Source: a virus
Lineage: Duplodnaviria; Heunggongvirae; Uroviricota; Caudoviricetes
Strand: one strand, 5' to 3'
DNA: 64,000 nt
Virus record (IMG/VR): IMGVR_UViG_2700989400_000004
Location: 1 to 64,000 of that record
The notes under the pieces are model-generated. The model ran no database searches, was not told the origin of the DNA, and worked only from the letters and a program-made list of their open reading frames with translations. Positions within the stretch are counted from its first letter, which is position 1, and each line of letters starts with the position of its first letter. The position numbers and the translations under genes were made by a program. Below are positions 13,922 to 63,028 of the stretch, piece by piece.

Positions 13922-14096
13922 GACGCCACCGATAACCGTTATTTATCAGACCAAAGAAACTGGCATCTACTTTAATGCAGATGATTGTGTCAGGGTAATT
14001 TATGAACGGTTAAAACTGTGAAAAATCAGTTAGTGATAAGTAAAAACTATCGCTACGTGAACCGGGTCACACTTTTTACTGATGACGGGAAAGGTT

Positions 14097-16852: not shown

Positions 16853-16888
16853 CAACAACAACGCAAACACAACAACCGAGGAATGCCC

Positions 16889-18334
16889 ATGAGTATGTCA
16901 TCCATACCGTCGTCCTCCCAATCCGGGAAGCTCTATGGCTGGGTCGAAAGAATTGGTAACAAGGTTCCCCATCCTTTTTTGCTCTTTATCTATTTGATAA
17001 TCGTACTCATGGTGACGACGGCAATTTTGTCAGCCTTTGGCGTCAGTGCGAAAAACCCGACCGATGGTACGCCGGTGGTGGTGAAAAACCTGCTCAGTGT
17101 GGAAGGATTACACTGGTTTTTACCCAATGTGATTAAAAACTTTAGCGGTTTTGCTCCACTTGGAGCGATCCTGGCGCTGGTTTTAGGTGCCGGCCTAGCG
17201 GAGCGCGTCGGCTTACTGCCAGCGCTAATGGTTAAAATGGCATCGCATGTTAATGCCCGCTACGCCAGTTATATGGTGCTGTTTATTGCTTTTTTCAGCC
17301 ACATTTCTTCCGATGCGGCGTTAGTGATCATGCCACCGATGGGTGCGCTGATTTTTCTGGCGGTGGGCAGGCATCCAGTTGCAGGTTTACTGGCTGCCAT
17401 TGCAGGCGTAGGTTGCGGCTTTACGGCTAATTTACTGATTGTCACAACCGACGTGTTGCTGTCGGGGATCAGCACGGAAGCGGCGGCTGCGTTCAATCCG
17501 CAAATGCACGTCAGTGTAATTGATAACTGGTATTTTATGGCCAGCTCCGTAGTCGTACTGACGATTGTTGGCGGCCTGATAACCGACAAAATCATCGAGC
17601 CACGATTAGGTCAATGGCAGGGAAACAGCGATGAGAAACTGCAGACATTGACCGAAAGTCAGCGTTTTGGTTTACGCATAGCAGGTGTCGTATCGCTACT
17701 TTTTATTGCTGCGATCGCGCTGATGGTGATCCCGGAAAACGGGATATTGCGCGATCCGATTAATCACACCGTGATGCCATCACCCTTTATTAAAGGTATC
17801 GTGCCACTGATCATTCTTTTTTTCTTTGTTGTCTCGCTGGCTTATGGCATCGCTACCCGCACAATTCGACGTCAGGCGGATTTACCGCATTTAATGATTG
17901 AACCGATGAAAGAGATGGCGGGATTTATCGTGATGGTTTTTCCCCTCGCCCAATTTGTCGCCATGTTTAACTGGAGCAACATGGGGAAATTCATCGCCGT
18001 GGGGCTGACCGATATACTTGAAAGTTCAGGGCTTAGCGGCATCCCGGCGTTTGTCGGTCTGGCGTTGCTTTCCTCTTTCTTATGCATGTTTATTGCCAGC
18101 GGTTCCGCAATCTGGTCGATTCTGGCCCCCATTTTCGTACCAATGTTTATGCTACTTGGCTTTCACCCGGCATTTGCGCAAATCCTCTTTCGTATTGCCG
18201 ACTCATCCGTATTGCCTTTAGCGCCGGTATCTCCTTTTGTTCCACTGTTTCTTGGATTCCTGCAACGCTACAAACCAGACGCAAAACTGGGTACTTACTA
18301 TTCGTTAGTCTTGCCCTATCCGCTTATCTTTTGA
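16889..18334 (+). CDS. abgT: p-aminobenzoyl-glutamate transporter AbgT, apparently C-terminally shortened
   Basis: Polytopic AbgT-family protein; 481 aa from MSMSS start versus about 508 aa recalled for K-12; prophage DNA begins right after the stop. Confidence 0.85.
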   Translation: MSMSSIPSSSQSGKLYGWVERIGNKVPHPFLLFIYLIIVLMVTTAILSAFGVSAKNPTDGTPVVVKNLLSVEGLHWFLPNVIKNFSGFAPLGAILALVLGAGLAERVGLLPALMVKMASHVNARYASYMVLFIAFFSHISSDAALVIMPPMGALIFLAVGRHPVAGLLAAIAGVGCGFTANLLIVTTDVLLSGISTEAAAAFNPQMHVSVIDNWYFMASSVVVLTIVGGLITDKIIEPRLGQWQGNSDEKLQTLTESQRFGLRIAGVVSLLFIAAIALMVIPENGILRDPINHTVMPSPFIKGIVPLIILFFFVVSLAYGIATRTIRRQADLPHLMIEPMKEMAGFIVMVFPLAQFVAMFNWSNMGKFIAVGLTDILESSGLSGIPAFVGLALLSSFLCMFIASGSAIWSILAPIFVPMFMLLGFHPAFAQILFRIADSSVLPLAPVSPFVPLFLGFLQRYKPDAKLGTYYSLVLPYPLIF

Positions 18335-23700: not shown

Positions 23701-24960
23701 ATCGTCTGCTACATACTCTTTTGATTGCTCCCAGCCGTTCTTCGGGTCAGTCCAAGATACGATCACGGCGTTATAACATTCCGCACGGGCGATACTTGAA
23801 CGAGTAAACGCGCCATCAACGACATTTGCATTTGTAATAGTGGCGATCGGATCTTGTGGCGCATCGATCATCACCGTAAGGCGTTGTCCGTCCCATAGCG
23901 CCATACCTCTGAACATCCCGGCGATATTGTCCAGTAAGTCGCGGGCGCTCATCTGCTCTGTAATGTACGCATTAAGCGTAACGCGCGGCTCAAGGCCGCC
24001 GTAACCATCATTGACTAACTGGTCGCAGTATTGGGAAAGCGTATATAATGCGCCGTCATCAACATCAATATAGCCAGCATGACGGGCAAGGCCAAAACGC
24101 TCGTTTTTAACCAGATAACGGAAGATCCAAGCGGGGTTATTAGTGTACGCCTGCTTGAAGCCGCCAAGCCATAATCCTGAGTAAGTGCGCGTTTCCGGGT
24201 TGTAGTTATCAGGGATATCAACAATCAGCCCGCGGAGGTGATAAGTGCGGGTAGGCGTGTCAGCGTACTGATCATGGTCGATCACTGCGCCAGCTATAGC
24301 CGTGTGAGGGTAAGATAGGTTATCGTCGATAATTTCACTGTAACTATTCCATCGTGTATTGTTGTTCAATAAATCGCCAGTGCTATCGGGTGTAATACGA
24401 CGAACCCGAATATCGAACGGGCTTTCACTAGGTGCGCAAATAATATGAGACTCAAGATATTCACCGCTAATTTTACCGGTAATAGAAACGGCTTTAACAG
24501 GCGTCCATATCGTTGATGATGATGGTTTTACGTCAATCATCATCATAACGGTTGAATTGTATTGATTCCCTTCATCATCGCTTTCTACAAGAACATCCAC
24601 CCCAACATTCAACCTGACTCGCGTCACGTTGGGATCGGATACAGTGCGAACTAACGGGGTGTCGTGTGTTACCTCGGTGTTAACCATAACGGTCGATTCA
24701 ATAGCATTAAAACCATTGATCGGCGATTGGTTAAGTGTACCAGGACGCCAGGCGACACTAACGCCGGGGATACTGACATGACCCGCAGTATCCGTAATAG
24801 GTGTATCATTAAGCATCACGCAGTTCAACGGCGCGGCAGCATTAACCGGACCGTAGATCGGGCCTTCACTCAATATATCTAATACGCGATAAAACTGTTT
24901 ATGATACAAATTGTCATTAAGTAAATCTGGTGTGCTACCGCCACCACCACCACCGCCCAT
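20779..24960 (-). CDS. host specificity (central tail fiber) protein, lambda J-like
   Basis: 1393 aa; size, position after I/K/L and N-terminal conservation; divergent coiled-coil-rich C-terminal half. Confidence 0.8.
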   Translation of the reverse strand: MGGGGGGGSTPDLLNDNLYHKQFYRVLDILSEGPIYGPVNAAAPLNCVMLNDTPITDTAGHVSIPGVSVAWRPGTLNQSPINGFNAIESTVMVNTEVTHDTPLVRTVSDPNVTRVRLNVGVDVLVESDDEGNQYNSTVMMMIDVKPSSSTIWTPVKAVSITGKISGEYLESHIICAPSESPFDIRVRRITPDSTGDLLNNNTRWNSYSEIIDDNLSYPHTAIAGAVIDHDQYADTPTRTYHLRGLIVDIPDNYNPETRTYSGLWLGGFKQAYTNNPAWIFRYLVKNERFGLARHAGYIDVDDGALYTLSQYCDQLVNDGYGGLEPRVTLNAYITEQMSARDLLDNIAGMFRGMALWDGQRLTVMIDAPQDPIATITNANVVDGAFTRSSIARAECYNAVIVSWTDPKNGWEQSKEYVADDELIARDGYNETTLEAFGCTSRGQAYRAGKWLIETAKREPSKFTFKMARDAIHFTPGDIIEILDNNRAGARLGGRIVANNGKVITVDKVDSEYITAGDTISLLDSDGKFKKHQITGVNGNEITLAAAPAWIRNGTVFAVSTEAAKPVLCRITSVAETENNSVYTIEAAQHDPNKQAVVDEGAIFEISSDTLNHFRVPNIENLKVVNVGSETVQCRATWETQTTTHPLTFEIRVYNADGRVVASYETTNYRYEFYGLDAGNYTLGIRGRNDTGMKGAESIVDLVIGAPAAPVGVNWVPGVFQATVYPISSTTLTTDTSYEFYYAGENQITDFSQVTTSAQFTGRGYQWTFGGMATGHTYYVYVRTKNAFGVSDFIEASGKPSENFEEITDAVLNEVMEGEQFQNMIKDSIGEVTGGLMGDVEELKQTTVDIDQAVTDLKESTADLEERVKNNEDGIGEHESQINEISVELTEQENELMQTRASLQNAAIALMNNSLANTSTRTTLTAQYKNQKAETKAEIERIDSVIATEKEATAQALTTLESKVNDEISANVTELQQTIATLESSTSQSIEKLESQVNEDIQASLTEINQTITDLESSTAESINNLEAKVDGDISSAISSVDQALATHEQANATQFAQISASLEANEASITEWSEAFTSYQESTATQIESITASIEGQSVSIEENKTAITSLESDMSATWSVKIAADSNGMKYFSGISLGLTGSGTSTQSQCIFLVDRFVLMTAANGTYTTPFYVTNGAMYVREAFIKDASITTAKIAQQIQSSNYVSGSAGWMINKNGNAEFNNVTVRGTVYANSGVFNGTINATDGKFKGVVEATSFVGDVANMGVGPDRVLGYNGSYKATITYNDSTTSALTKSVMLMATITLTSGEYRSTYNVTFSCGGQSKTIQYYVPYGGCTLTVQCAFSGLTTSRITGEIYCPQTSASEGYSYCMALYSPTMLVSRGTGSFSASTTA

Positions 24961-26180: not shown

Positions 26181-26885
26181 TCACCCTACCTTGCTGGAAC
26201 CAGGGAAACAGGCGATCGGTAGCGCTGCTGGACGCGGGAAACGTAAACGACAACCGCTTAGGCGGTGACTGCATCTATCTAAATTCAGATCATTGGTTGG
26301 TACATCCTTATCAGTAGCCACCGGACCGCCAGAATACATACATCCATCGCCCCTATATTGCCATTGACAAACATCCGCCAGGATAGTCCGGCCTGGGATA
26401 ATCGCTTTATCTGCGTCAATCGGCGTTGATAACTCATACTGAACCTGATCTGCTGTTTCTTCTGCCATTGCTTCAATGACGTAAAAAGATACAGCCTCAA
26501 TAGATGGATCTGCGTCTGGATTGCCGTTAGGGAAGTTAACGGCGTCCAGGTATTTAACCTCCACCTGGCGGCGCGTAACCTTCATTCCTCTAAGGTCGTT
26601 GAAATCGTTATTCATCCCCGTAATGAGTCCGCCGATATTGGCTACAGCCATTTGAGGACGTGAATAAACGCCCTCGTTTTTCATTTCGAAGCCAGTAGCC
26701 TCGATCGGGTAGCTGTTGTAAGTTAATCCCTTCCAGATAACCGGGCCGTAATAGCCATTCGCGCCGGAATGGAAGCGGATAACCTCGCCACCCAGGGGCG
26801 ACAAGTCCAGTTCGAACAAGTCAATCACCGCGCCCACACCAGCGTCCACGGAATCAATAATCATCTCTGTAGGTATATTGCGCAT
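26181..26885 (-). CDS. minor tail protein, lambda L-like
   Basis: Start MRNIPTEMII with AAGGTGA Shine-Dalgarno; position before K. Confidence 0.75.
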   Translation of the reverse strand: MRNIPTEMIIDSVDAGVGAVIDLFELDLSPLGGEVIRFHSGANGYYGPVIWKGLTYNSYPIEATGFEMKNEGVYSRPQMAVANIGGLITGMNNDFNDLRGMKVTRRQVEVKYLDAVNFPNGNPDADPSIEAVSFYVIEAMAEETADQVQYELSTPIDADKAIIPGRTILADVCQWQYRGDGCMYSGGPVATDKDVPTNDLNLDRCSHRLSGCRLRFPRPAALPIACFPGSSKVG

Positions 26886-26900
26886 TTTCTCACCTTCTGA

Positions 26901-26938
26901 TTTTGTGATCTGCGTCACGCTAAATCATACCAAAATGG
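26901..26938. promoter_or_regulatory. conserved TTTTGTGATCTGCGT...CAAAATG element upstream of L
   Basis: 15/15 identical core to the stf-upstream copy. Confidence 0.5.
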
Positions 26939-27014
26939 ATTGATCGCGGTTTATACAATATGTATATTTTACTCAAACGGAAGCACAGTTAACAAAATGG
27001 CGCGGAGGTGTGAG

Positions 27015-27170
27015 ATGGCTGATAAGGTGTGGAGGTTGAAGGTATTCCTGTCAGGTGGCAGGGAAATGACTGTAGCTCTGTATAAAGACGAAGGCGAGGC
27101 ACTGACTGACGCGCTATTACTCACTGAAGACGAACGCGTTTTGGGGTACAGAATCGAACCTGTCAAATGA
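27015..27170 (+). CDS. small hypothetical protein (antisense cassette)
   Basis: 51 aa with GGAGG Shine-Dalgarno. Confidence 0.3.
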   Translation: MADKVWRLKVFLSGGREMTVALYKDEGEALTDALLLTEDERVLGYRIEPVK

Positions 27171-27182
27171 GAGGTTAACGAA

Positions 27183-27530
27183 ATGCAAAAATATAGTCTT
27201 GATGTGTGGTTAAGTGGTTGCAAGGAGTGTTTCGGATTATTTGATAGCGAAGAGGCAGCTTTGGAAGAAGGAAGGATTCTTGAATGTAGTTTAGGCCATC
27301 CAGTGAAATATGCCGCTAATCCGGTGCAGATAATTGATGAGGTGGAAAACATGAACCCGAAAGATATTAACTTTAACGTCAATGTTGAATTTGCTGATTC
27401 TATGGATCAGTCTTGCCCTGGTGAAATACACGTAAAAGGTTTCCCGGCAGACGACATGAAAGCGAAACATGAATACGAAAAAGCGGCGAAAGATTTCTGC
27501 ATCGACAATCTGAGCGCGTTTAATAAATAA
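27183..27530 (+). CDS. hypothetical protein (antisense cassette)
   Basis: 115 aa ORF on strand opposite to tail operon. Confidence 0.45.
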   Translation: MQKYSLDVWLSGCKECFGLFDSEEAALEEGRILECSLGHPVKYAANPVQIIDEVENMNPKDINFNVNVEFADSMDQSCPGEIHVKGFPADDMKAKHEYEKAAKDFCIDNLSAFNK

Positions 27531-27539
27531 GGCGGCAAT

Positions 27540-27788
27540 ATGGCGCGGCGTAATCACGGGGATTATGTGTACACGTTGAAACAAGCCGCCCGCCTTATTG
27601 GCTATCATGAGCATGAATTTATTGATTTGCTGATTGAGCGCGGGATTCTGTACCAGGTTTGTTTAACGTTGTACCCAAAAGCTAAATACCTACAGGAAAA
27701 ATTATTCATCATCATGACGGATGAAAACCAAGTTAATCATTCATTCGTCACTGACAGGGGCGTTAATTATCTGCGTGATAACTTATAG
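27540..27788 (+). CDS. hypothetical protein (antisense cassette)
   Basis: 82 aa; tightly spaced after previous ORF. Confidence 0.4.
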   Translation: MARRNHGDYVYTLKQAARLIGYHEHEFIDLLIERGILYQVCLTLYPKAKYLQEKLFIIMTDENQVNHSFVTDRGVNYLRDNL

Positions 27789-27880
27789 GCGGTAATTATG
27801 GATGAAGTAATCGAAAATGTTTTGGTAGTGGCTGGCGCGATTGCCATCGTTTATGCCTTTCTGAATTAATGGGGTGAATC

Positions 27881-28018
27881 ATGAAAATTGAAGTTTTAGC
27901 ACTAATAGCAATGGGCTTGATAGTATTTGGCGTGCACGCTGCGGATTGGGACTGGTGCGCAATAGCTGAGAACATGGCGCACGCTCACCCAATAGGCTTG
28001 ATGCACATGAACTTCTAA
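27881..28018 (+). CDS. small protein with signal-peptide-like N-terminus
   Basis: 45 aa MKIEVLALIAMGLIVFGVHAADWDW... Confidence 0.25.
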   Translation: MKIEVLALIAMGLIVFGVHAADWDWCAIAENMAHAHPIGLMHMNF

Positions 28019-28022
28019 CACG

Positions 28023-28044
28023 AAAAACCCCGCTTCGGCGGGGT
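28023..28044 (-). terminator. hairpin terminator
   Basis: CCCCGC ttcg GCGGGG with T-tract on minus strand. Confidence 0.45.
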
Positions 28045-28062
28045 GTTATAGGTAGGTGAGAC

Positions 28063-28239
28063 ATGAAAGAAGGTGTGACTTATCAGCATGTGTATACATT
28101 TGAAATTTACCGCATATGTGATGGTTATGTTGAAGAGTATAAAATCTTCCCCCGTGGATACTGGAAGAGAGTTAAGATTTCTGTAAGGTTATTAAAGAAA
28201 ATGTTTAAAAGAGGATTAATTCAAGAAATTGATTTTTAG
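28063..28239 (+). CDS. small hypothetical protein
   Basis: 58 aa, followed by strong hairpin. Confidence 0.3.
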   Translation: MKEGVTYQHVYTFEIYRICDGYVEEYKIFPRGYWKRVKISVRLLKKMFKRGLIQEIDF

Positions 28240-28243
28240 TAAA

Positions 28244-28278
28244 CAATAAGGGGGTTACCCCCCTTATTGTTTTATTTG
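28244..28278 (+). terminator. rho-independent terminator (bidirectional)
   Basis: CAATAAGGGGG/CCCCCTTATTG stem plus T-tract. Confidence 0.55.
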
Positions 28279-28359
28279 TCGTGACGACTTTCTATTTCAT
28301 AGATGATCGCCATTCCTACCGCGATAATAAATACCATTACCAAGCCATCAACCAGCATA

Positions 28360-28545
28360 TTAAACGCCCTCAATCAAGAATAAATATTCCTTCCCTTCGT
28401 AAGATCTGCATCCCACATACCCGTCGCCGTAGTCATGCAGATACCAGGTGTTCCCCTTATCACTCACCACTGTGAGATTATCGATCTGGTAGTCTTCGAA
28501 TAGCGTAAATGATTCATCGCCAGTCTTAACGCACATCCCGTACAT
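28360..28545 (-). CDS. hypothetical small protein
   Basis: 61 aa ORF between M-like gene and antisense cassette. Confidence 0.3.
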   Translation of the reverse strand: MYGMCVKTGDESFTLFEDYQIDNLTVVSDKGNTWYLHDYGDGYVGCRSYEGKEYLFLIEGV

Positions 28546-28555
28546 ATTGCCCCCT

Positions 28556-28909
28556 TTAATTCATCACTTGCTCAAACATCGCGGTTAGCGTGAATACGGG
28601 GCCATCCTTCGTCATGTTCCATTTTCGGCAGACAAAAAGCCTTTGCACTCCATCCATCGACGGCGACCAGTAAAACGCCTCGACCGCGCCGCGCGCCCGT
28701 AAAAACGCCTCCGCCTGGATCGCTGGATTGCCAGCGTCACCGCATCCGGCGCTCGACCCCTTAAAAACCACGCTGTAATCGTCGAGCAAGGGATTAATCC
28801 CTTTAACCTGGCGTTGCTCATAGCCATCACCCAGCTTGACGACCGACACGTTCGGCTCCCTGGTTACGCTGTAGCTACGCTGCGGCGTCCAGGTAAACAC
28901 TTCCGGCAT
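28556..28909 (-). CDS. minor tail protein, lambda M-like
   Basis: 117 aa, position after tape measure. Confidence 0.5.
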   Translation of the reverse strand: MPEVFTWTPQRSYSVTREPNVSVVKLGDGYEQRQVKGINPLLDDYSVVFKGSSAGCGDAGNPAIQAEAFLRARGAVEAFYWSPSMDGVQRLFVCRKWNMTKDGPVFTLTAMFEQVMN

Positions 28910-28927
28910 AATTCCCCCTATAAATTA

Positions 28928-28971
28928 CATTTTGTATACATCTTTACGCGCTTCTACGCGAAAAATGAGAA
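28928..28971. promoter_or_regulatory. CATTTTGTA plus CGCGTA-N4-CGCGTA element upstream of M
   Basis: TACGCG direct repeat also present upstream of portal (42121-42140). Confidence 0.4.
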
Positions 28972-29078
28972 CTTCATCACAAGAATTATAACCAGTTTAC
29001 AAAATGGCTTCACACAGGACGCAACAAGATGTATACAGAAAGCAAGAAGAAAAGCAGTACCAACAAAGGAGGCCCAAG

Positions 29079-29246
29079 ATGAAACGCAACGATAAACACT
29101 ACGCGGTCGTAATGCTTAATAACGCATTTGAACAAGTAGAAGTGGCGATCGTTAAAGGCTTTGATGATGCATTCAAAATGGGCCAGTTCTACATGAACGT
29201 GAAGGAAAACGAATACCGGGATTTCTACCTGAAAGCGGTCAACTAA
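29079..29246 (+). CDS. small hypothetical protein (antisense cassette 2)
   Basis: 55 aa with AAGGAGG Shine-Dalgarno. Confidence 0.35.
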   Translation: MKRNDKHYAVVMLNNAFEQVEVAIVKGFDDAFKMGQFYMNVKENEYRDFYLKAVN

Positions 29247-29263
29247 GGATGATGGGGTGAGCT

Positions 29264-29518
29264 ATGAAACTGGTAGCGATTGATAAAAATTTGAAGGTAC
29301 AGAAAAACGCGCAGGACCGGATCATCAAAAAGGGTAAGGCTTTATTAAATGCTTTCCTGAAAAAAGAAGCTCACCCCAAAAAGTTACGCGATGGTTACGG
29401 TTATAAATTTGATATCAACCCCGATTGGCGGTTATTCAGCGATGATTTGAAGGTGTGGTTAATTATCGAGCATCATTATTATAATGTTAAATGTGGGGTT
29501 AAGGGGGCGCATAAATGA
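29264..29518 (+). CDS. hypothetical protein (antisense cassette 2)
   Basis: 84 aa; translationally coupled to following short ORFs. Confidence 0.4.
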   Translation: MKLVAIDKNLKVQKNAQDRIIKKGKALLNAFLKKEAHPKKLRDGYGYKFDINPDWRLFSDDLKVWLIIEHHYYNVKCGVKGAHK

Positions 29519-29752
29519 GATGGCGTGAATTACATAGCTACGGCATCCGGTTTTCCCTGGTTGTCCTGAAAGATTGGTTTAATCGCCAGGTGGCAAACGA
29601 TGCGTTAATCCCGTTTGCTGATAACAAGCCTTATAAGCGCGATGGGGTGAGATATGGAAGATGATAAATTTACATGGCGGGAGATCTGGAATATTTGGCA
29701 GGTAATTTTCGGAAGGGGATATATTGCGCGGAATGGTCGATTGTAGAGGTAA

Positions 29753-29935
29753 ATGATGATTATTCATGAAACGGAAGAATGTCGGCGGATTAATCTTAGT
29801 ATTGAGTATGACGAAAGATTATGGCTTGAAAGCGACTGCGAAATAATCGTAATAGACAAAAAGCAAGCCGCCGAACTGATAAGCGCATTACAGCTTTATG
29901 TAAACAACGAATTTAAAAATGACGAAGTTGAATAA
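29753..29935 (+). CDS. hypothetical protein (antisense cassette 2)
   Basis: 60 aa, followed by hairpin plus T-tract. Confidence 0.35.
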   Translation: MMIIHETEECRRINLSIEYDERLWLESDCEIIVIDKKQAAELISALQLYVNNEFKNDEVE

Positions 29936-29941
29936 AGAAAA

Positions 29942-29976
29942 CCCCCAGCTTTCGCCGGGGGTATTATTTTATTTTT
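29942..29976 (+). terminator. rho-independent terminator
   Basis: CCCCCAGC tttc GCCGGGGG then T-rich run. Confidence 0.5.
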
Positions 29977-32854
29977 TGCGCGGTTGTAACATGCCACCGG
30001 GGCGTGTGCTTTGTTCCCTAACTACCCCCATAGCCACGCGTTTCATTGTGTCTTCAAGTCTGCGGCTATCCTCATCACTAAAACCGTTTGTCGTTTGAAC
30101 GGTAATACTAACAGGCATGTTGATGCTGCCACCACCGCCCAAGTCGCGGTTAGGAGTAATACGCCCACCTTCACCGGGGATTATGTACTGTTTCCCGCCA
30201 GTAGTGGTAAACAGCTCCGGTTTACCGTGCTCACCAACCCTATAAAGATTGCCGCCATTAACCGCACCGCCGTTGTAGCGTCCGCCACCGAAAATGGACG
30301 TCGCCAGCGACATGATTGCAGACAATGCCGCCGCACCAGCCGCCGCCCAGCTACCGCCAGTTGCCGCCGCCGTCGCCGCCGCCGCCGGGGCCGCCGCCGC
30401 TGCAATCTGACCTTGCGCCGCTACCGCGCCCGCCGTGGTGCTGGCTTGCGTTGCCTTGCTCTGACTTTCCATCATGATTTGGTCGGCTATCCAGTTTGCT
30501 GCAATCTGAGATAAGCGGTTGCCTACCGTGCCGAGAATGTTGCTACCCAGGTTAGCAAACATCTCGCTTAGGGATTGTGTGCCGTTGAGCAATCCGGTAA
30601 TGGCGTTACCCATGCCGCTTGTTAAGCCGTTGACGCAATCGCCGATAAGCGCGTTAGTGTCGCTTTGCGCTTGCCATTGCTCCCACTTAAGCGCGGTTAG
30701 CTGTTGTTCATAGGCTAACTCTTCCATTTTCAATTGGGCCTGTGTAGCGCCTAAATCAGTGAGCATTTGCTTTCTGATAGTCCATTCATTTTGCAACTGC
30801 TGAATAGGGTCTACCTGGCCTTTTTTCTTGTCTTCATCAGAAACAAGGCTATCCCATTTGGCTTGTTGTTCTTCCTCGCGTAGCTGTTTCAGCGTGTCAG
30901 ACAACGCCTTGCTTGCGCCCTCCTTCGCGGCTGTATATTCCAGATAAGTGATCTTACCTTGCTTGTACGCTGCATCCAGGGCTTTTTGTTCTTCGCCAAG
31001 TTTACGCATAGCGGCGGCGTCTTTGTTGTACTGGTCGGAAATATTTAAGCCTTCATCGCCTAACTTATCCCAATCGGATTTTTTCGACTTCTTGCCCTTC
31101 CCGTCCTTGCCGCCACTGCCACCGCTGCCGCTTCCCGTTCCGGTTGGTTTCGGCGGAACATATGTACCATTAATACGGGCTTGTGCTTCGTCGGCTTTCT
31201 CGTTGGCTTTTTCAAGGTTTTTATTAGCCGTGTCTAACTTACCTTCTAAGGTCTTCTGAGTATCCCCGGCGACACCTAGCGCCGCTTTTGCAGGTCCGGC
31301 AATTTCTGGATCATCACTCTGCGCTAATTTTTCCAGGATGGCGCGGTTTTTCACCATGCGATCCAGTTCGGCTTTTGCCTTCCGGGCGTTTTCCTCAATG
31401 TCTTTGAGTTGTTTGTTTATCTCAATCAAAGCCGCTTCCAGTTCATTTTTGCTCATATCGTCGAACGACATAGCCAATTCGTCGATTTTGGCTTTTGCGT
31501 TGGCGGCTTTCTCTTCAGTGCTTTCCATGTTAAGGATAAGCGTACCCAGGCAGATCGCAGCGGTCATGATTGCGCCAGCGGGGCCACCAAGTAACCCTAA
31601 CGCGCCATTGAAGATCCGCATCCCGATGCTGGCGGCTTTTGCTGCTGTACCGGACGCAACGATTGCCGCGTTAGCCGTGGTGGCAGCGGTGCGCATAGTC
31701 GTGTAAGCGGCGGCGGTTTGCGCTTGCGCTACACGGAGGCGAGCAAGCGCGGCGGTGTGGGCGTTTGTACCCTGCGCGGCCTGGTAGTGGGCGCGGGCCT
31801 CCCCTTCTGCCTGCAATGCTGCTTTAAGTCCGGCGGCGGCTGTGTGTAGCTGCTGGCGTGCCAGGTTGGCTTCTGCTGCTGCCTGCTGCGCGGCGGCCTG
31901 TGCTGCTTTCTGGTTGGCGGCTGCCAGCCGGATGTTTTCCGCCGTTGCCTGGATGATGCCACCTAACGCCCGTCCACCCATTACAGCACCAAGTGCAATG
32001 GCGGAGGCGGTTACAACGTCCAGGTTTTCAGATAGGGTGATCAGCGTGCTGTTAAACGCGTTAATCCCGCTACGGATCACAGAGTTTTCACCAAAATACT
32101 TAGTCGCGTTGTTGGTGGCAACTGTGAAGGCATCCGACATAGTGATCGCCATATTGTCGAACTCTTTATCTACTTCGGACTTCATCGCCCGGACCGCTGC
32201 GATAATTATATCTTTCGTGATCTTGCCGTCCTTCGCCATTTCACGCAATGCGGTACTGGATACGCCCATTGATTTTGCGATACCTTCCGCCAGGCGTGGC
32301 GCGTTCTCCATTACGCTATTGAATTCATCGCCGCGCAATTCACCAGATCCCAAGGCCTGGGCCAATTGTCTGATCCCGCCTTCCATTTCGCTTGCGGATG
32401 CGCCGGACACCTGAAAGGATTTGTTAATCGTTTCCACGATGCTTGCCAGGTCACGCCCGCTTAGTCCGCTGTCACGCGTTGCGCGTTCCAATTTGGAGTA
32501 AAGCGCGGCGGTCGCATCCAGTGGTGACATTGATTTCTGTGCGGCCTTAAAAACCCGGTTTGTAACTTCTTCCAGTGATTCATTTGACCGGACGGAGTTA
32601 ACCAGCTTGTTGTTTACTTCTTGCCAGGCGTTGGCGTACTCAATGATCTTTCTTGTCACCAATGCCGCACCAACCGCGCGGGCAACCGTGGATAGGCTCG
32701 CCAGGGATTTACTTGCCTTATCAGCGGCGGTGTCTACCCGTTGCAGGTCTTTTTCCATCGCTCCGGTTGCCTTGTCTACTTCTTTCTGTGCAACCAGTAG
32801 CGATCCGGTTTTGGCGTCGATCGTGTATTCAATCGCGCCTACATTTTTAGCCAT
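29969..32854 (-). CDS. tail tape measure protein
   Basis: About 960 aa, coiled-coil rich, Gly/Ala-rich C-terminal region; start MAKNVGAIEY with GGAG Shine-Dalgarno. Confidence 0.85.
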   Translation of the reverse strand: MAKNVGAIEYTIDAKTGSLLVAQKEVDKATGAMEKDLQRVDTAADKASKSLASLSTVARAVGAALVTRKIIEYANAWQEVNNKLVNSVRSNESLEEVTNRVFKAAQKSMSPLDATAALYSKLERATRDSGLSGRDLASIVETINKSFQVSGASASEMEGGIRQLAQALGSGELRGDEFNSVMENAPRLAEGIAKSMGVSSTALREMAKDGKITKDIIIAAVRAMKSEVDKEFDNMAITMSDAFTVATNNATKYFGENSVIRSGINAFNSTLITLSENLDVVTASAIALGAVMGGRALGGIIQATAENIRLAAANQKAAQAAAQQAAAEANLARQQLHTAAAGLKAALQAEGEARAHYQAAQGTNAHTAALARLRVAQAQTAAAYTTMRTAATTANAAIVASGTAAKAASIGMRIFNGALGLLGGPAGAIMTAAICLGTLILNMESTEEKAANAKAKIDELAMSFDDMSKNELEAALIEINKQLKDIEENARKAKAELDRMVKNRAILEKLAQSDDPEIAGPAKAALGVAGDTQKTLEGKLDTANKNLEKANEKADEAQARINGTYVPPKPTGTGSGSGGSGGKDGKGKKSKKSDWDKLGDEGLNISDQYNKDAAAMRKLGEEQKALDAAYKQGKITYLEYTAAKEGASKALSDTLKQLREEEQQAKWDSLVSDEDKKKGQVDPIQQLQNEWTIRKQMLTDLGATQAQLKMEELAYEQQLTALKWEQWQAQSDTNALIGDCVNGLTSGMGNAITGLLNGTQSLSEMFANLGSNILGTVGNRLSQIAANWIADQIMMESQSKATQASTTAGAVAAQGQIAAAAAPAAAATAAATGGSWAAAGAAALSAIMSLATSIFGGGRYNGGAVNGGNLYRVGEHGKPELFTTTGGKQYIIPGEGGRITPNRDLGGGGSINMPVSITVQTTNGFSDEDSRRLEDTMKRVAMGVVREQSTRPGGMLQPRKK

Positions 32855-32869
32855 AGCGTTGATCTCCGT

Positions 32870-32930
32870 TTTTGTGATCTGTGTAACTATTTTATACAAA
32901 ATGGCTTTGCTTTAACGACTCCATTTTGTA
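32870..32930. promoter_or_regulatory. conserved TTTTGTGATCTGTGT element plus 10-bp inverted repeat TACAAAATGG/CCATTTTGTA upstream of tape measure
   Basis: Seen directly. Confidence 0.5.
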
Positions 32931-32984
32931 TAAAGAAGCCATAGGGAATAGGTAGTTAAACAAACAAGTTAAGTGGGGTGGGTT

Positions 32985-33167
32985 ATGAACGTATACGAAG
33001 CCATCAGAAATATTAGAAATATCGAGAAAAATGTAGGTAACGAGGCGGCGCAAGAAGAATGCAAAATGTACATGAAGAAGCTACCACGCCGTGAACAATT
33101 TGTTTTGGGTGGCCCTAGCCTAGCGATGGAATTCGCAAGATTAAGAAAAGAAATGCTCAATAACTAA
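32985..33167 (+). CDS. small hypothetical protein
   Basis: 60 aa with GGGGTGG Shine-Dalgarno. Confidence 0.3.
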   Translation: MNVYEAIRNIRNIEKNVGNEAAQEECKMYMKKLPRREQFVLGGPSLAMEFARLRKEMLNN

Positions 33168-33185
33168 TATTTAACTGGGTGAAAC

Positions 33186-33923
33186 ATGAAAAACGTAATT
33201 AAAGCGGCTCTTATTGGTGTTATGGCTTTCGGTCTTGTAGGTTGCGCACCTTCATATTCAGAGCAAGTAAAAGCAATAGAAAAAGGCGTGCTAATGCTGG
33301 ATAAAACGGGGGTTAACAAGGATGCATGGAAAGTAAAAGCAGATGATTATGTCGCCGATTGCAACAACCTTAAGAGATACAAAGGAAAAACAGGTGAAAC
33401 CGCCGTACTATTATGCGAACTAATCATCAAAGAAGATGAACTAACAGAAAGCGGACTATATACAAGCGCGGCTAACCTCGGCGTCGATATAGCGGGCCTT
33501 TATGATGTACTAAGTAATAAAAATTCAGCCGCTGCATTATCAGCCGAACGTGTAGCAAAACTTGTGATAAGTGCTAATAAGTCAGCATTTCGCAATAGAC
33601 AACAAGTTATAGAAAATGAATGCCGCGGCTTTATGGATAAAAACTTTAAAGGCTGGAGTGAGTTAAACCCTATAGATGACGAAATTTATAATAATTGCCG
33701 GAATGCCGCAATGTTCTCTGATGAAAGCAAAAACAGAATGGGGAGCATAATTTCTACAACGCTCGCATATAGAGTAAGACACCTCGATCAAAAAACAAAA
33801 ACAAATGTATTAACTAACGCATTCATAGCAGTTCAGGCAGGCTGGAGTATAGGGAATGGATATCACGCCGTAAAACCGACTCCGGCAGAACTACAAGCGA
33901 TTGCGCTACGCGATGCAAAGTGA
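33186..33923 (+). CDS. lipoprotein (moron, antisense to tail operon)
   Basis: Signal peptide plus lipobox LVGC; 245 aa; own terminator. Confidence 0.6.
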   Translation: MKNVIKAALIGVMAFGLVGCAPSYSEQVKAIEKGVLMLDKTGVNKDAWKVKADDYVADCNNLKRYKGKTGETAVLLCELIIKEDELTESGLYTSAANLGVDIAGLYDVLSNKNSAAALSAERVAKLVISANKSAFRNRQQVIENECRGFMDKNFKGWSELNPIDDEIYNNCRNAAMFSDESKNRMGSIISTTLAYRVRHLDQKTKTNVLTNAFIAVQAGWSIGNGYHAVKPTPAELQAIALRDAK

Positions 33924-33930: not shown

Positions 33931-33956
33931 GCCCGGTTAATTCCGGGCTTTTTTCT
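33931..33956 (+). terminator. rho-independent terminator
   Basis: GCCCGG ttaatt CCGGGC followed by TTTTTT. Confidence 0.6.
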
Positions 33957-34629
33957 GTTTTAATTTTTTCATTCTTTCCAGTGCCTTTCTTGCGGCCTGC
34001 ATCCCATCGTCATAAGCCTTTTTATCTATGGCGGCATCTGGTCGTCTTTTCTCGTTTTTCGCTTCTGGCGGCGTTTTAGCGCGTACAGCGGCCCTATATC
34101 CGGTCATGGTCATGGCCCATGCTTCTGATTCAGATAATCCCAGGTGAGCAACGGCGGAATAAACGTAATCAAGAACATCGAACGTTGATTTATATTCCCC
34201 TTCCTGCTTATCAGTTTGTTGTTTGCTGCCGGGAATATCACCGATTAAACCGTGGTACATGCAATGCTGCGCCAGCGTGATGACGTCCTGAGTTGGCAGC
34301 AAGCCAGGGCGTAAACGTAATTTACCCGCCGGAGTAAATCTACATTCGCCCACCAGCGGCCCTATTTCGCTTTCTGCGCATGATTTCAGGATGTGTATAG
34401 ACGTTTGCACCAGTTCACCATAACACCGCGCCAAAACCCGTTTACGAAGCTCTGGATCGGTAGGGAAGATCTTCGGATACCTTCCACCATGAACAATGGC
34501 AAAGTAGCGCACCAGTTCGGAATCATCACCGATCCGCGCCATAGCTGCGAAGGATGGATTAAATATATATGCGCGACCATCAACCTTAATTTCAAATTGT
34601 CCAGTTCGAACATGAATCATAATCATCAC
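33937..34629 (-). CDS. putative tail assembly chaperone
   Basis: Position between tail tube and tape measure; 230 aa. Confidence 0.4.
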   Translation of the reverse strand: MMIMIHVRTGQFEIKVDGRAYIFNPSFAAMARIGDDSELVRYFAIVHGGRYPKIFPTDPELRKRVLARCYGELVQTSIHILKSCAESEIGPLVGECRFTPAGKLRLRPGLLPTQDVITLAQHCMYHGLIGDIPGSKQQTDKQEGEYKSTFDVLDYVYSAVAHLGLSESEAWAMTMTGYRAAVRAKTPPEAKNEKRRPDAAIDKKAYDDGMQAARKALERMKKLKQKKARN

Positions 34630-34665: not shown

Positions 34666-35178
34666 TTATTCGACTGGTGTCTCTTGTTCAGTTCCGGCGT
34701 CTTCCTCTGCCGGGAGATCATCGACGGTTACTTGTCCGGCGCTGGAACATTCGATCGACCAGGTGCAAGCGTCATCATGCGGATCGTCTTCCTCAAAGTT
34801 GGTGCAAAGGAATGGACCCTCGGTCACGTCCACCGGGGAAACCATTTTCAACCACACATAAGGCTGTCCACCAGTGGCTTCGCCTGGATTAATGGTATGA
34901 CGTTTCAATGCCTTCTGGTTGTAGATCTCTTCGGTACGGGATACGCCATCACCGGAGAAAGAAACAGATTTGTAAGTTACCAATGATTCCTTAGTGTAAT
35001 CAGCGGATTTGTCAGCGGTGGCATCTGCGACTTCCCATTCGACGGAAAGCGTTTTACCGCGCATCATGCCAAGCTCTAAATAATCTTCATCCGCTGGCTT
35101 CGCGTTAGGGCAAGCAATAGCGAAAAACACCGCGACGTCGCGCCCTGTGAATGCGCCTTTCTGGCAAGTTGTAGACAT
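34666..35178 (-). CDS. putative major tail (tube) protein
   Basis: 170 aa; position in structural operon. Confidence 0.45.
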   Translation of the reverse strand: MSTTCQKGAFTGRDVAVFFAIACPNAKPADEDYLELGMMRGKTLSVEWEVADATADKSADYTKESLVTYKSVSFSGDGVSRTEEIYNQKALKRHTINPGEATGGQPYVWLKMVSPVDVTEGPFLCTNFEEDDPHDDACTWSIECSSAGQVTVDDLPAEEDAGTEQETPVE

Positions 35179-51331: not shown

Positions 51332-51521
51332 TATCGTCACCCCGCTTGTAAATTTTGACAGGCTTAATAGGGATGGCGGGCAATTCGCCTTCATTTAATG
51401 CGCTTGCCATACCCAATATTAAACGCGCTTCCGCACCAGTGACTTTCTTACACCATGCGCCGCCTTTTTTATCTTGAAATAAGATAACAGCAAACTGATC
51501 GTTTATTTCCAGCTTATCCAT
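51321..51521 (-). CDS. hypothetical small protein immediately downstream of Q
   Basis: 66 aa; may instead be leader of late transcript. Confidence 0.25.
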   Translation of the reverse strand: MDKLEINDQFAVILFQDKKGGAWCKKVTGAEARLILGMASALNEGELPAIPIKPVKIYKRGDDNEA

Positions 51522-58048: not shown

Positions 58049-58147
58049 CTTCCCGCCCTCCGTGCTGTATACCTTTCGACTTCAGTTTACAAAACGGATA
58101 CAGCGGGACAATACAAAATGTATATTTATGTGATCGGTATCACGCGA

Positions 58148-58768: not shown

Positions 58769-58779
58769 GATATTTATCC

Positions 58780-62943: not shown

Positions 62944-63028
62944 GTCGCTACCCTATCGCCCTAAAAAGTTTGATGCAAGTCACAAAATGTATTTTTCAAG
63001 TCTTGACCTAAAAACGCCATTCTGTAAA

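What the first reader, a model, noticed from the sequence alone, without database searches (positions are those of the whole stretch)
26940..33923. Three antisense gene cassettes interleaved within the tail operon
Plus-strand cassettes with their own ribosome-binding sites and terminators sit between L and M (26940-28280, at least five small ORFs), between M and tape measure (29004-29935, five coupled small ORFs), and between tape measure and the tail chaperone (32985-33923, small ORF plus lipoprotein). Lambda-like tail modules are normally uninterrupted here. Being transcribed against the late operon suggests lysogen-expressed functions, and the lipoprotein is a candidate superinfection-exclusion or surface factor.
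Basis: partly seen in the sequence, partly recalled or inferred. Interest (0 to 1): 0.65.

Follow-up and report, generated by a model that had tools for sequence, protein, structure and literature searches.

The report
Antisense accessory cassettes splitting prophage tail genes
Three small groups of real accessory genes sit backwards between the tail genes of an mEp021-type E. coli prophage; the layout is shared by the whole phage lineage and already annotated in GenBank, though not discussed in the one paper on the group that I read, so it is a tidy example of a known phenomenon (phage "morons") with one new regulatory clue.

Summary
Three + strand cassettes lie between L and M (27015-28239), between M and the tape measure gene (29079-29935), and between the tape measure gene and the DUF6246 gene (32985-33923). 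Each has SD-preceded ORFs, reversed GC skew, lower GC and a hairpin terminator.

The window is an mEp021-type (mEpimmI) E. coli prophage. All 33 close relatives have antisense cargo at two or all three junctions. Lambda-like relatives have M and L contiguous.

C1 and C2 keep lineage-core, promoter-proximal genes under purifying selection, plus variable distal genes. The core genes include an 82-aa KilAC/HTH-like protein and a ParE-like protein with a 55-aa partner. C3 is a swap site for exported proteins; here it holds a near-orphan 245-aa lipoprotein.

The best reading is moron cassettes in a "noncontiguous" Q-dependent late operon, as described for phi80 tai.

New here: a 12-nt box, CCATTTTGTAWA, occurs in pairs at the M and TMP junctions (one clean and two degenerate copies at L) and at the nut-linked early promoters. 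There are 10 hits against 1.2 expected. The box is conserved in relatives and faces both the tail genes and the cassettes.

Because of the box, expression in the lysogen is plausible but not established. Exclusion by the lipoprotein is untested, and the protein is unrelated to Lpp021.

The parts
26181..26885 (-). Minor tail protein L (flank of cassette 1)
   Evidence: ORF; RefSeq and GenBank homologs are annotated 'minor tail protein L'; Phage_tail_L in L204. ATG at 26885 read.
26924..26968 (.). J1 divergent control region. On the - strand, CCATTTTGGTATGAT (26924-26938) faces L. On the + strand, TTGATC-17-TATATT (26940-26968) faces cassette 1.
   Evidence: At least 90% conserved in 23 distinct relatives. 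Function as promoters is predicted, not shown.
26989..27000 (-). Box copy (CCATTTTGTTAA) in the cassette 1 leader, just upstream of the c1a RBS
   Evidence: conserved in relatives.
27015..27170 (+). c1a, 51 aa, unknown function (phrog_29559)
   Evidence: RBS GGAGGTG. 29 related loci; same length as mEp021_74.
27183..27530 (+). c1b, 115 aa, unknown function (phrog_38567)
   Evidence: 30 loci. No PDB or Pfam hit.
27540..27788 (+). c1c, 82 aa, KilAC (ANT C-terminal) domain, HTH-like small protein; lineage-core
   Evidence: Pfam PF03374, E 3.8e-6, 27.6 bits against a cut-off of 25.3. 90-99% identical in 30 loci, syn 387 / nonsyn 92.
27881..28018 (+). c1d, 45 aa, small hydrophobic or signal-peptide protein; variable
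   Evidence: 21 loci, syn 135 / nonsyn 90.
28027..28044 (-). Hairpin with T-tract on the - strand, inside cassette 1
   Evidence: Inferred to be the older end of the M-gp70 unit, predating the c1e insertion.
28063..28239 (+). c1e, 58 aa, rare cargo
   Evidence: Strong RBS. Homolog in only 1 related locus.
28241..28272 (.). Bidirectional terminator hairpin (14-bp stem) closing cassette 1 and the M-gp70 unit
   Evidence: I13.
28360..28545 (-). Small gene after M (homolog of mEp021_70)
   Evidence: 31 loci.
28556..28909 (-). Minor tail protein M
   Evidence: Phage_min_tail in L204. Used as the anchor.
28927..29007 (.). J2 control region. Box ACATTTTGTATA (28927-28938, + direction) faces cassette 2. 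Box CCATTTTGTAAA (28996-29007, - direction), followed by TATAAT, faces M. The two predicted transcripts would overlap.
   Evidence: Conserved at M start -28 and -98 in about 22 of 31 relatives.
29079..29246 (+). c2a, 55 aa, partner of c2b (putative antitoxin; phrog_29810)
   Evidence: RBS AGGAGG. PHROG match covers residues 31-80 of the long ORF. Co-occurs with c2b in 31 of 33 loci. Syn 299 / nonsyn 163.
29264..29518 (+). c2b, 84 aa, ParE-like toxin-domain protein; lineage-core
   Evidence: Pfam PF24732, E 8.3e-12, 45.4 bits against a cut-off of 24.4. Present in 33 of 33 close relatives. Fold test inconclusive.
29515..29664 (+). c2c, 49 aa, rare, translationally coupled to c2b (ATGA overlap)
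   Evidence: 3 loci, syn 22 / nonsyn 5. Weak codon score.
29654..29740 (+). c2x, 28-aa ORF (plus stop codon)
   Evidence: 17 loci, syn 164 / nonsyn 68. RBS GGGGTGA.
29753..29935 (+). c2d, 60 aa, unknown function (phrog_13627); variable
29941..29962 (.). Bidirectional terminator hairpin between the c2d stop and the tape measure stop
29969..32854 (-). Tape measure protein (probable start ATG 32854, not TTG 32899)
   Evidence: PF20155 TMP_3, E 1e-59. Start read.
32891..32934 (.). J3 control region: perfect 14-nt inverted pair TTTATACAAAATGG-N16-CCATTTTGTATAAA. The left copy faces the tape measure gene and the right copy faces cassette 3.
   Evidence: I11. Present at TMP start -51 and -79 in 30 of 30 relatives whatever the cargo.
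32985..33167 (+). c3a, 60 aa, unknown function
   Evidence: RBS GGGGTGGG. A 74-aa ORF occupies the same position before the c3b homolog in L204.
33186..33923 (+). c3b, 245-aa lipoprotein (lipobox LVGC, Cys20), predicted all-alpha mature part, near-orphan
   Evidence: Only 2 homologs in the word-indexed search and 3 in the exhaustive HMMER search. The 80%-identical homolog lies at the same junction. No hit in E. coli complete genomes or phage records.
33931..33948 (.). Bidirectional terminator hairpin spanning the 13-nt gap between the c3b stop and the DUF6246 stop
33937..34629 (-). DUF6246 protein in the tail-assembly-chaperone position
   Evidence: PF19759, E 4e-53. Role inferred from its position between the tail tube and tape measure genes.

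Best explanation
The three cassettes are genuine accessory-gene modules ('morons') on the strand opposite the tail genes of an mEp021-type (mEpimmI) E. coli prophage. They make the tail cluster a 'noncontiguous operon'.

All three junctions are built the same way. A 50-150 bp control region carries one promoter-like element facing the cassette and one facing the next tail gene, each with a copy of the box CCATTTTGTAWA. Then come two to five short, SD-preceded, often coupled genes. A GC-rich hairpin that can terminate in both directions abuts the stop codon of the upstream tail gene.

Inferred mechanism: during lytic growth, Q-antiterminated late transcription reads through the hairpins and across the cassettes in antisense. 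This makes tail proteins and damps the cassettes. When late transcription is off, the cassettes can be transcribed from their own promoters and stop at their own hairpins.

Cargo:
- C1 holds three lineage-core genes, including an 82-aa KilAC/HTH-like protein, plus variable small genes.
- C2 holds a lineage-core pair, a 55-aa protein followed by an 84-aa ParE-like toxin-domain protein (a likely toxin-antitoxin or stabilisation/abortive module), plus variable small genes.
- C3 is a recombinational swap site for exported envelope proteins. Here it holds a near-orphan lipoprotein, most likely a cell-surface modifier.

Shown: the anatomy, coding status, conservation, cargo turnover, box conservation, and the presence of Q. 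Inferred: promoter activity, timing of expression, antisense interference, toxin activity and lipoprotein function.
For: - Identity of the element: 80-94% DNA matches to mEp phages and to 55 of 5,426 complete E. coli genomes. The repressor is 92% identical to Rep021 and Q is 84% identical to gp37.
- The same three junctions hold opposite-strand genes in mEp021 (gp74-71, gp68-65, gp63) and in the RM9245 prophage.
- In 33 close relatives the cargo ORFs are antisense versus sense 117:37 at J1 (the sense ones are mainly the gp70 homolog, 30 of 37), 125:8 at J2 and 66:1 at J3. There are 15, 17 and 13 distinct protein clusters at the three junctions.
- One relative (L061) lacks C1. More distant Enterobacterales relatives have gaps from -4 bp upward, and lambda-like ones are contiguous.
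- Homology breakpoints coincide with the control region and the hairpin.
- Purifying selection acts on the ORFs. GC and skew shift in the cassettes. Terminators are present.
- The box gives 10 hits against 1.16 expected and sits at fixed positions in 30 of 30 (TMP) and about 22 of 31 (M) relatives.
- Precedent for the mechanism: phi80 taiEcA lies antisense in the Q operon. It is expressed in the lysogen and reduced when Q is supplied (PMC11364771).
- ParE_like Pfam hit above the curated cut-off. Lipobox read.
- J3 cargo in relatives: lipoproteins, including a VasI/TagO-family protein (E 2e-16), Sec-signal proteins and membrane proteins.
Against: - There are no expression data.
- The cassette promoters share the box with the nut-linked early promoters and with the promoters facing the tail genes. 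They may therefore be repressed in the lysogen, which would contradict the classic moron reading.
- The C1 and C2 core genes are present in 28-33 of 33 relatives. That suits a function in the phage's own life cycle better than dispensable conversion genes.
- Each tail segment also has its own promoter-like element and a - strand terminator, so a single spanning late transcript is not proven.
- c3b has no detectable relative of known function.
Confidence: 0.62

Rival explanations
1. The cassettes are early or lytic-cycle accessory genes, not lysogen-expressed morons. The CCATTTTGTAWA box would be the operator of the prophage repressor or of another early regulator. All junction promoters, facing both cassettes and tail genes, would then be silent in the lysogen and fire on induction or infection. 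The cassettes would supply functions such as an antirepressor-like regulator (c1c), a growth-arrest or anti-host protein (c2b) and envelope remodelling (c3b).
For: - The box overlaps the -10/spacer of the PL-like promoter (63005-63032, followed by nutL-like boxA/boxB) and of the promoter ahead of nutR2 (53700-53790). It abuts the -35 of the promoter for the N-like gene (62174).
- The same layout is found upstream of L, M and TMP.
- The box is found only in the lineage that shares the Rep021-type repressor. All contigs where both could be checked have Rep at 88% identity or more, and the box is absent from 73 distant loci.
- The C1 and C2 proximal genes are lineage-core.
- KilAC domains belong to antirepressor-type proteins.
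Against: - The box is not palindromic, unlike typical CI-type operators.
- A separate palindrome (TCAAGTCTTGA) overlapping the PL -35 is an alternative operator candidate.
- The position of the box relative to the -10/-35 differs between promoters.
- Antisense orientation and private terminators are hard to explain if the genes are co-expressed with late genes.
- J3 cargo is dominated by envelope proteins typical of lysogenic conversion or exclusion.
Confidence: 0.28
2. The core cassette genes (c1a-c, c2a-b) are needed for tail morphogenesis or its control and merely happen to lie on the other strand.
For: They are conserved in nearly all close relatives at fixed positions between tail genes and are under purifying selection.
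Against: - In the mEp021 GenBank record, which marks proteins found in the virion by mass spectrometry as 'virion structural protein', none of gp63-gp74 on the opposite strand carries that label (PMC11893012).
- A natural relative lacks cassette 1 altogether (L061).
- More distant relatives with 57-73% identical M have empty or differently filled junctions.
- The family hits (ParE-like, KilAC) are not morphogenetic.
Confidence: 0.06
3. The + strand ORFs are chance open frames in long non-coding spacers.
For: The ORFs are short. Two (c1d and c2c) have borderline codon scores. c1e, c2c, c3a and c3b are rare.
Against: Synonymous substitutions exceed non-synonymous in the five best-sampled ORFs and the frames stay intact across 20-30 divergent loci, whereas the opposite-strand frames decay. 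Other evidence includes PHROG and Pfam hits, SD sequences, GC-skew reversal and independent gene calls in RefSeq, GenBank and Logan.
Confidence: 0.02

Closest known systems
Phage mEp021 and the mEpimmI group (MH706966; Front Microbiol 2025, PMC11893012): genes gp74-71, gp68-65 and gp63
   Same: Direct homologs and the same architecture: opposite-strand genes at L|M, M|TMP and TMP|gp62, with annotated RBSs and terminators. Same repressor type, an N-like Nus-dependent system and a Q homolog.
   Different: Cargo differs. mEp021 has extra zinc-ribbon and other genes in J2 (2,075 bp) and a 138-aa signal-peptide protein in J3. The window's c3a-c3b pair, c1e and c2c are absent from it. The paper does not use the words moron, opposite or antisense. 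It says accessory genes lie mainly in the regulation cluster and says only that lipoprotein genes lie within the structural cluster.
phi80 taiEcA/atiEcA 'noncontiguous operon' (Nat Commun 2024, PMC11364771)
   Same: An accessory or defence gene placed divergently inside the Q-dependent late operon. It is expressed in the lysogen and reduced when Q drives late transcription across it. The window has a Q-family antiterminator upstream of the same kind of arrangement.
   Different: In phi80 there is one gene, upstream of the packaging module. Here there are three multi-gene cassettes inside the tail module, with no homology to Tai (no PADLOC hit). Each downstream tail segment also has its own promoter-like element. 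Expression was not tested here.
Morons of lambdoid phages (Juhala et al. 2000; HK97 gp15 superinfection-exclusion moron, Cumby et al. 2012; both known to me only from reference lists and from memory)
   Same: Extra genes between genes that are adjacent in relatives, with their own promoter and terminator and deviating base composition. HK97 gp15 is a membrane protein that blocks DNA entry.
   Different: Classic morons are usually single genes in the sense orientation, as in the distant relatives here, where cargo ends in a strong terminator immediately before TMP, M or L. The window's cassettes are antisense and multi-gene, and two of the three have lineage-core content. I could not read the HK97 papers, so the position and orientation of gp15 are not verified.
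Type II toxin-antitoxin modules of the RelE/ParE superfamily
   Same: c2b matches the Pfam ParE_like domain above the curated cut-off. A small, co-conserved gene lies 17 nt upstream, which is the usual antitoxin-toxin order.
   Different: There is no sequence match to any solved ParE or RelE structure, and the fold search was inconclusive. c2a matches no antitoxin family. All homologs found lie inside this phage lineage.
Phage exclusion lipoproteins (Lpp021/Gp81 and Lpp010 of mEpimmI phages; Cor/Llp type)
   Same: A prophage-encoded lipoprotein within the structural gene cluster, on the strand opposite the tail genes, as gp81 is in mEp021.
   Different: c3b is 245 aa against 72 aa, shares only the signal peptide, and sits between the chaperone-position gene and the tape measure gene instead of after J.

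Membership tests
Phage moron (accessory insertion in a conserved module) | Flanking genes are adjacent in related phages that lack the insert | tested here: met
   L061 has M and L 125 bp apart. Distant Enterobacterales relatives have M-L gaps of -4 to 36 bp and TMP-M gaps of -1 to 11 bp in many loci. Lambda-like loci have -10 to +9 bp.
Phage moron (accessory insertion in a conserved module) | Own promoter and own terminator | tested here: inconclusive
   Hairpin terminators are clear. Promoter-like elements are conserved (TTGATC-17-TATATT for C1; box plus TATAAA/TATACA for C2 and C3), but the -35 hexamers of C2 and C3 are weak and no activity was measured.
Phage moron (accessory insertion in a conserved module) | Base composition differs from the surrounding module | tested here: met
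   GC 0.41-0.44 in the cassette intervals against 0.50-0.56 in the tape measure gene, with GC skew reversed.
Phage moron (accessory insertion in a conserved module) | Expressed from the repressed prophage | not testable with these tools
   No transcriptome data. The shared box with early promoters leaves this open.
Noncontiguous operon | Co-oriented, functionally related genes separated by gene(s) on the opposite strand | tested here: met
   Tube-DUF6246 | C3 | TMP | C2 | M-gp70 | C1 | L-K-I-J.
Noncontiguous operon | One transcript spans the interrupted operon and overlaps the antisense gene's transcript | not testable with these tools
   In support, a Q-family antiterminator is present and mEp021 has no other strand switches between the lysis genes and the tail. 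Against, - strand terminators and promoter-like elements flank each segment.
RelE/ParE-type toxin-antitoxin pair (c2a-c2b) | Toxin belongs to a ParE/RelE sequence family | tested here: met
   PF24732 ParE_like, E 8.3e-12, 45.4 bits against a cut-off of 24.4. The same domain is precomputed on 37 of the 42 homologs.
RelE/ParE-type toxin-antitoxin pair (c2a-c2b) | RelE/ParE fold | tested here: inconclusive
RelE/ParE-type toxin-antitoxin pair (c2a-c2b) | Adjacent, co-conserved small partner gene upstream | tested here: met
   c2a lies 17 nt upstream and co-occurs with c2b in 31 of 33 loci. It has no antitoxin family hit.
RelE/ParE-type toxin-antitoxin pair (c2a-c2b) | Toxicity neutralised by the partner | not testable with these tools
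   Needs expression experiments.
KilAC/ANT antirepressor (c1c) | KilAC domain | tested here: met
   PF03374, 27.6 bits against a cut-off of 25.3, a marginal pass. 'ANT (weak)' is listed on the L204 homolog.
KilAC/ANT antirepressor (c1c) | N-terminal KilA-N/Bro-N/ANT effector domain of full-length antirepressors | tested here: not met
   c1c is 82 aa and the match covers residues 10-82, so there is no room for a second domain.
Exclusion lipoproteins (Lpp021, Cor/Llp type) | Lipobox signal peptide | tested here: met
   MKNVIKAALIGVMAFGLVGC, with lipobox LVGC.
Exclusion lipoproteins (Lpp021, Cor/Llp type) | Sequence relationship to a lipoprotein with shown exclusion activity | tested here: not met
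   Only the signal peptide aligns with Lpp021 (E 0.15). No PHROG of known function and no PADLOC hit.
Exclusion lipoproteins (Lpp021, Cor/Llp type) | Blocks superinfection when expressed | not testable with these tools
   Needs plating assays.

The most novel reading that the evidence does not exclude
The three junctions are regulatory hubs and not passive insertion sites. A single, still unidentified DNA-binding protein of the immunity/early circuit (the Rep021-type repressor, the Cro-like HTH protein, or the cassette-encoded KilAC/HTH protein) would read the CCATTTTGTAWA box at the early nut-linked promoters and at every tail junction. It would thereby switch bidirectional promoters that drive both a tail-gene segment and an antisense cassette. 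Tail-gene expression in this lineage would then be partly independent of Q and coupled to the immunity switch. The chaperone-TMP junction would be a dedicated exchange site where a conserved promoter and terminator, and in some cargoes a conserved signal peptide, let the phage swap envelope proteins.
Probability: 0.22. Interest if true: 0.6.

Novelty: new variant of a known kind. Interest (0 to 1): 0.42.

Why it matters
mEp021-type phages were as common as lambdoid phages in the human faecal samples that yielded the mEp collection (PMC11893012). The tail region studied here matches 55 of 5,426 complete E. coli genomes.

The work shows that their tail module is a three-fold interrupted operon with fixed cargo slots. 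That gives a clean natural system for studying how antisense accessory genes coexist with an essential late operon. It also points to where these prophages keep exchangeable envelope proteins and a conserved ParE-like module, both candidates for exclusion, defence or prophage stabilisation.

The shared box gives a concrete, testable handle on whether such 'morons' are really autonomous or are wired into the immunity circuit.

The practical value is modest. The architecture itself is already visible in public annotations, and the general phenomenon is known.

Tried and rejected
- Structure of the lipoprotein c3b: the single-sequence AF2 model was unusable (pLDDT 41), so no fold search was run on it.
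- Homolog searches for c3b: only 2 hits in the word-indexed search and 3 in the exhaustive search. That is too few for a useful alignment.
- PDB sequence searches for c2b, c1c and c1b found nothing significant.
- NCBIfam and PADLOC gave no hits for any of the ten cassette proteins scanned (c2x and c3a were not scanned).
- Rfam found no RNA family in 24-36 kb, only sub-threshold hairpin hits at the terminators.
- My first reading of the box as a plain extended -10 promoter element was dropped. Its position relative to the -10/-35 differs between promoters (and the sequence at 62174).
- Tying the box to the repressor by co-variation failed. Every box-bearing contig that could be checked has the same repressor type.
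- The OmpR idea: the J2 cassette-side box shares TTACATTTTG with the ompC C1 site, but the other copies deviate at the conserved AC positions. I kept it as a weak lead only.
- Greedy longest-ORF calling mis-assigned strands. It was replaced by a codon-score filter.
- ORF 29919-30098 was rejected as a gene.
- The HK97 gp15 paper could not be read.
Full report
**What the window is.** Nearly all long ORFs between 18.5 and 63 kb lie on the - strand. The 24.9-35.2 kb stretch matches the tail region of phages mEp013, mEp021, mEp010 and others at about 80% identity. It also matches prophages in 55 of 5,426 complete E. coli genomes, the best being strain RM9245 at 94%.
- The repressor (62296-62943, - strand) is 92% identical to Rep021.
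- A Q-family antiterminator (51521-52249, - strand; PF03589, E 4e-31) is 84% identical to mEp021 gp37.
- The genes at 14082-18334 are the host abgA, abgB and abgT.

The window is therefore an E. coli chromosome carrying a prophage of the Nus-dependent, non-lambdoid 'mEpimmI' group described in 2025 (PMC11893012).

**Check of the observation.** The tail genes run on the - strand: tube 34666-35178, DUF6246 33937-34629, tape measure (TMP) 29969-32854, M 28556-28909 with a small gene at 28360-28545, L 26181-26885, then K, I and J. Three groups of + strand ORFs fill the gaps.
- GC skew is negative across the prophage but turns positive exactly in these intervals, and GC falls to 0.41-0.44.
- Every + strand ORF has an SD-like sequence. 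Four share the start context GGGGTGAnnnATG (D3).
- Each cassette ends in a GC-rich hairpin that reads as a terminator on one or both strands: 28241-28272, 29941-29962 and 33931-33948. Another lies at 28027-28044 inside cassette 1 (26 sites against 10 +/- 3.5 in shuffles).

A codon-usage score trained on the long genes of related loci separates the + strand ORFs (-0.17 to +0.16 per codon) from most opposite-strand shadow ORFs (-0.13 to -0.44); two small ORFs, c1d and c2c, fall in the overlap. Across about 120 related loci the + strand ORFs stay intact, whereas the shadow frames accumulate non-synonymous changes and stops, and the best-sampled ORFs show more synonymous than non-synonymous codon differences. 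Corrected starts are c1a 27015, c2a 29079 and c3a 32985. ORF 29919-30098 is probably spurious. A 28-aa ORF (29654-29740) is conserved in 17 loci.

**Comparative anatomy.** With protein M as anchor I fetched 43 loci from species-representative genomes and 80 from IMG/VR. I located the anchor genes and measured the three gaps.
- In the 33 close relatives (M at least 80% identical, including mEp021 and RM9245), J1 (M-L) is 1.2-1.9 kb, J2 (TMP-M) 0.68-2.1 kb and J3 (DUF6246-TMP) 0.64-1.3 kb. One locus (L061) has lost cassette 1.
- In relatives from Enterobacter, Citrobacter, Atlantibacter, Erwinia, Pantoea, Yersinia and others (M 57-73% identical), the junctions are empty or variably filled, from -4 bp up to several kb.
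- In lambda-like loci (M 45% identical or less), M and L are -10 to +9 bp apart in 13 of 14 cases.

After filtering by codon score, cargo ORFs in the close group are antisense to the tail genes by 117:37 at J1 (most of the sense ORFs, 30 of 37, are the conserved small gene after M), 125:8 at J2 and 66:1 at J3. There are 15, 17 and 13 distinct protein clusters at the three junctions.

DNA homology to the window breaks exactly at the cassette edges.
- In J1, 26635-27784 (promoter, c1a-c) is shared by 25-30 loci, while 27785-28334 is variable.
- In J2, 28659-29508 (promoter, c2a, c2b) is shared and 29509-29958 is variable.
- In J3, everything between about 32960 and 33920 is unique to the window, except the signal-peptide segment, which is shared with 4-6 loci.

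So the promoter-proximal genes of C1 and C2 are lineage-core, the terminator-proximal genes turn over, and J3 exchanges whole cargoes between a conserved control region and a conserved hairpin.

In the distant relatives the cargo is mostly in the sense orientation. It ends in a strong terminator immediately before the RBS of TMP, M or L, which is the textbook moron design.

**What the cargo is.**
- c1c (82 aa) passes the Pfam threshold for the KilAC/ANT C-terminal domain, though only just. It is 90-99% identical across relatives. It is too short to be a full antirepressor.
- c3b (245 aa) has a lipobox (LVGC) and a predicted helical mature part. It has only three relatives among 1.8 billion representative proteins. 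It has no match in complete E. coli genomes or phage records. The 80%-identical relative lies at the same junction of another mEp021-like prophage, again behind a small ORF.
- In relatives, J3 holds alternative exported proteins: a VasI/TagO-family lipoprotein (Pfam E 2e-16), a weakly BamE-like lipoprotein whose signal peptide is nearly identical to that of c3b, two Sec-signal proteins and small membrane proteins.
- c3b is unrelated to Lpp021, the 72-aa lipoprotein of mEp021 that was shown to exclude superinfecting phages.
- No cassette protein matches a PADLOC or NCBIfam model.

**A shared regulatory box.** The three control regions share the 12-nt element CCATTTTGTAWA.
- At one mismatch or fewer it occurs 10 times in the window against 1.16 expected (none of 100 shuffles reached 10). 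All copies are intergenic and inside the prophage.
- At J3 two perfect copies form a 14-nt inverted pair 16 bp apart. One faces TMP and one faces cassette 3.
- At J2 one copy faces cassette 2 and one faces M.
- At J1 a one-base-insertion variant faces L, a degenerate copy overlaps the cassette 1 promoter (TTGATC-17-TATATT), and a third copy lies in the cassette 1 leader.
- In relatives the pair sits 51 and 79 bp upstream of TMP in 30 of 30 loci whatever the cargo, and 28 and 98 bp upstream of M in about 22 of 31.
- The box is absent from the 73 distant loci: 0.003 hits per kb against 0.22.

The remaining copies mark the early control regions:
- a PL-like promoter (TTGACC-16-TAAACT) followed by a nutL-like boxA/boxB;
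- a promoter immediately ahead of the nutR2-like site (a pair of boxes);
- a site abutting the -35 of the promoter for the N-like gene;
- a further copy (58086-58097) in another intergenic gap among the - strand genes, with a 2-mismatch tandem partner at 58110.

The upstream regions of L, TMP, M and the nutR2 operon align over the box, and L and TMP also share a 23-nt leader. Because the box sits at different distances from the -10 and -35 elements, I read it as a protein-binding site and not as a core promoter element. Its reader is unknown. All box-bearing contigs that could be checked have the same repressor type, so co-variation cannot identify it. One copy resembles the ompC C1 OmpR site, but only weakly overall.

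**Mechanism.** The best-supported reading has the cassettes as accessory modules embedded antisense in a Q-dependent late operon. This is a 'noncontiguous operon' as proposed for phi80, where the antisense defence gene taiEcA is made in the lysogen and falls when Q drives late transcription across it (PMC11364771). Here the presence of Q, the absence of other strand switches between the lysis genes and the tail in mEp021, and the two-way hairpins all fit that model.

What does not fit a simple moron picture is threefold. Two of the cassettes have core content. Each tail segment has its own promoter-like element. The box is shared with the early promoters. The box allows the rival reading that the cassettes, and perhaps extra tail-gene transcription, are released only when the immunity circuit switches. 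I put about 0.6 on the moron/noncontiguous-operon reading and about 0.3 on the early-regulated reading. Roles in morphogenesis or chance ORFs are unlikely.

**Novelty and verdict.** The architecture is visible in the GenBank annotation of mEp021 and in RefSeq prophage annotations. Morons and antisense genes in late operons are known. The paper on this phage group does not discuss the cassettes.

New here are:
- the demonstration that the three slots are a lineage-wide design with fixed breakpoints;
- the split between core and swappable cargo;
- the envelope-protein slot next to the tape measure gene;
- the shared box.

I rate it a new variant of a known kind, of moderate interest.

Noticed in passing
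window 14082-18334 (+) and 18484-20568 (-): The host genes abgA, abgB and abgT (M20 peptidases and an AbgT transporter) lie directly next to the prophage's last gene, a 694-aa tail fibre with a Peptidase_S74 chaperone domain. The prophage end therefore lies at about 18.4 kb. Unlike mEp021, there is no Cor/Lpp-type lipoprotein gene after J.
   Followed up: partly
window 51521-52249 (-): Q-family antiterminator with an inserted DnaJ-type CXXCXGXG zinc-finger segment, 84% identical to mEp021 gp37. The zinc-finger part is the most divergent stretch between the two.
   Followed up: partly
window 53650-53695 (-) and 63098-63138 (+): nut-like sites, each a boxA (GCTCTTTAAAAA) followed by a boxB hairpin. 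Each lies 20-65 nt downstream of a promoter that carries the CCATTTTGTAWA box. They correspond to nutR2 and nutL of mEp021.
   Followed up: partly
window 62998-63008; L126 11103-11113: An 11-bp palindrome, TCAAGTCTTGA (TCAAGGCTTGA in mEp021), overlaps the -35 of the PL-like promoter. CTTGCAAG-type repeats lie nearby. This is an alternative candidate for the repressor or Cro operator.
   Followed up: no
window 26896-26918 and 32865-32887: The leaders of L and TMP share a 23-nt sequence (GTnACnCAGATCACAAAAnCnGA on the - strand). This suggests a duplicated promoter-leader module. It also creates the spurious N-terminal extensions of both ORFs.
   Followed up: partly
window 58086-58121: Two further box copies in tandem on the - strand, 24 bp apart (one with 1 mismatch, one with 2 against TATACAAAATGG), lie in the intergenic gap between the - strand ORFs 57866-58048 and 58148-58798.
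   Followed up: no
window 24930-24960 (-): The J ORF begins MGGGGGGGS, a run of glycine codons at the I/J junction. The true start or a slippery run was not examined.
   Followed up: no
L003-L026 and L076-L125, between the DUF6246 homolog and TMP: In more distant Enterobacterales relatives this junction holds 0.5-5 kb of mostly sense-oriented cargo. It is rich in lipoproteins (six or more clusters) and in larger 170-280-aa proteins that I did not scan against any family library. Each cargo ends in a strong terminator just before TMP.
   Followed up: partly
L204 2518-3051; L002 6433-6999: HNH endonuclease genes occupy tail junctions in some relatives: after the ParE-like gene in J2 of L204, and between I and J in mEp021. 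Homing-type elements therefore also use these slots.
   Followed up: no
L061 (IMGVR_UViG_3300045988_076424): A natural variant lacks cassette 1 and the small gene after M (M-L gap 125 bp) but keeps cassettes 2 and 3 and their boxes.
   Followed up: partly
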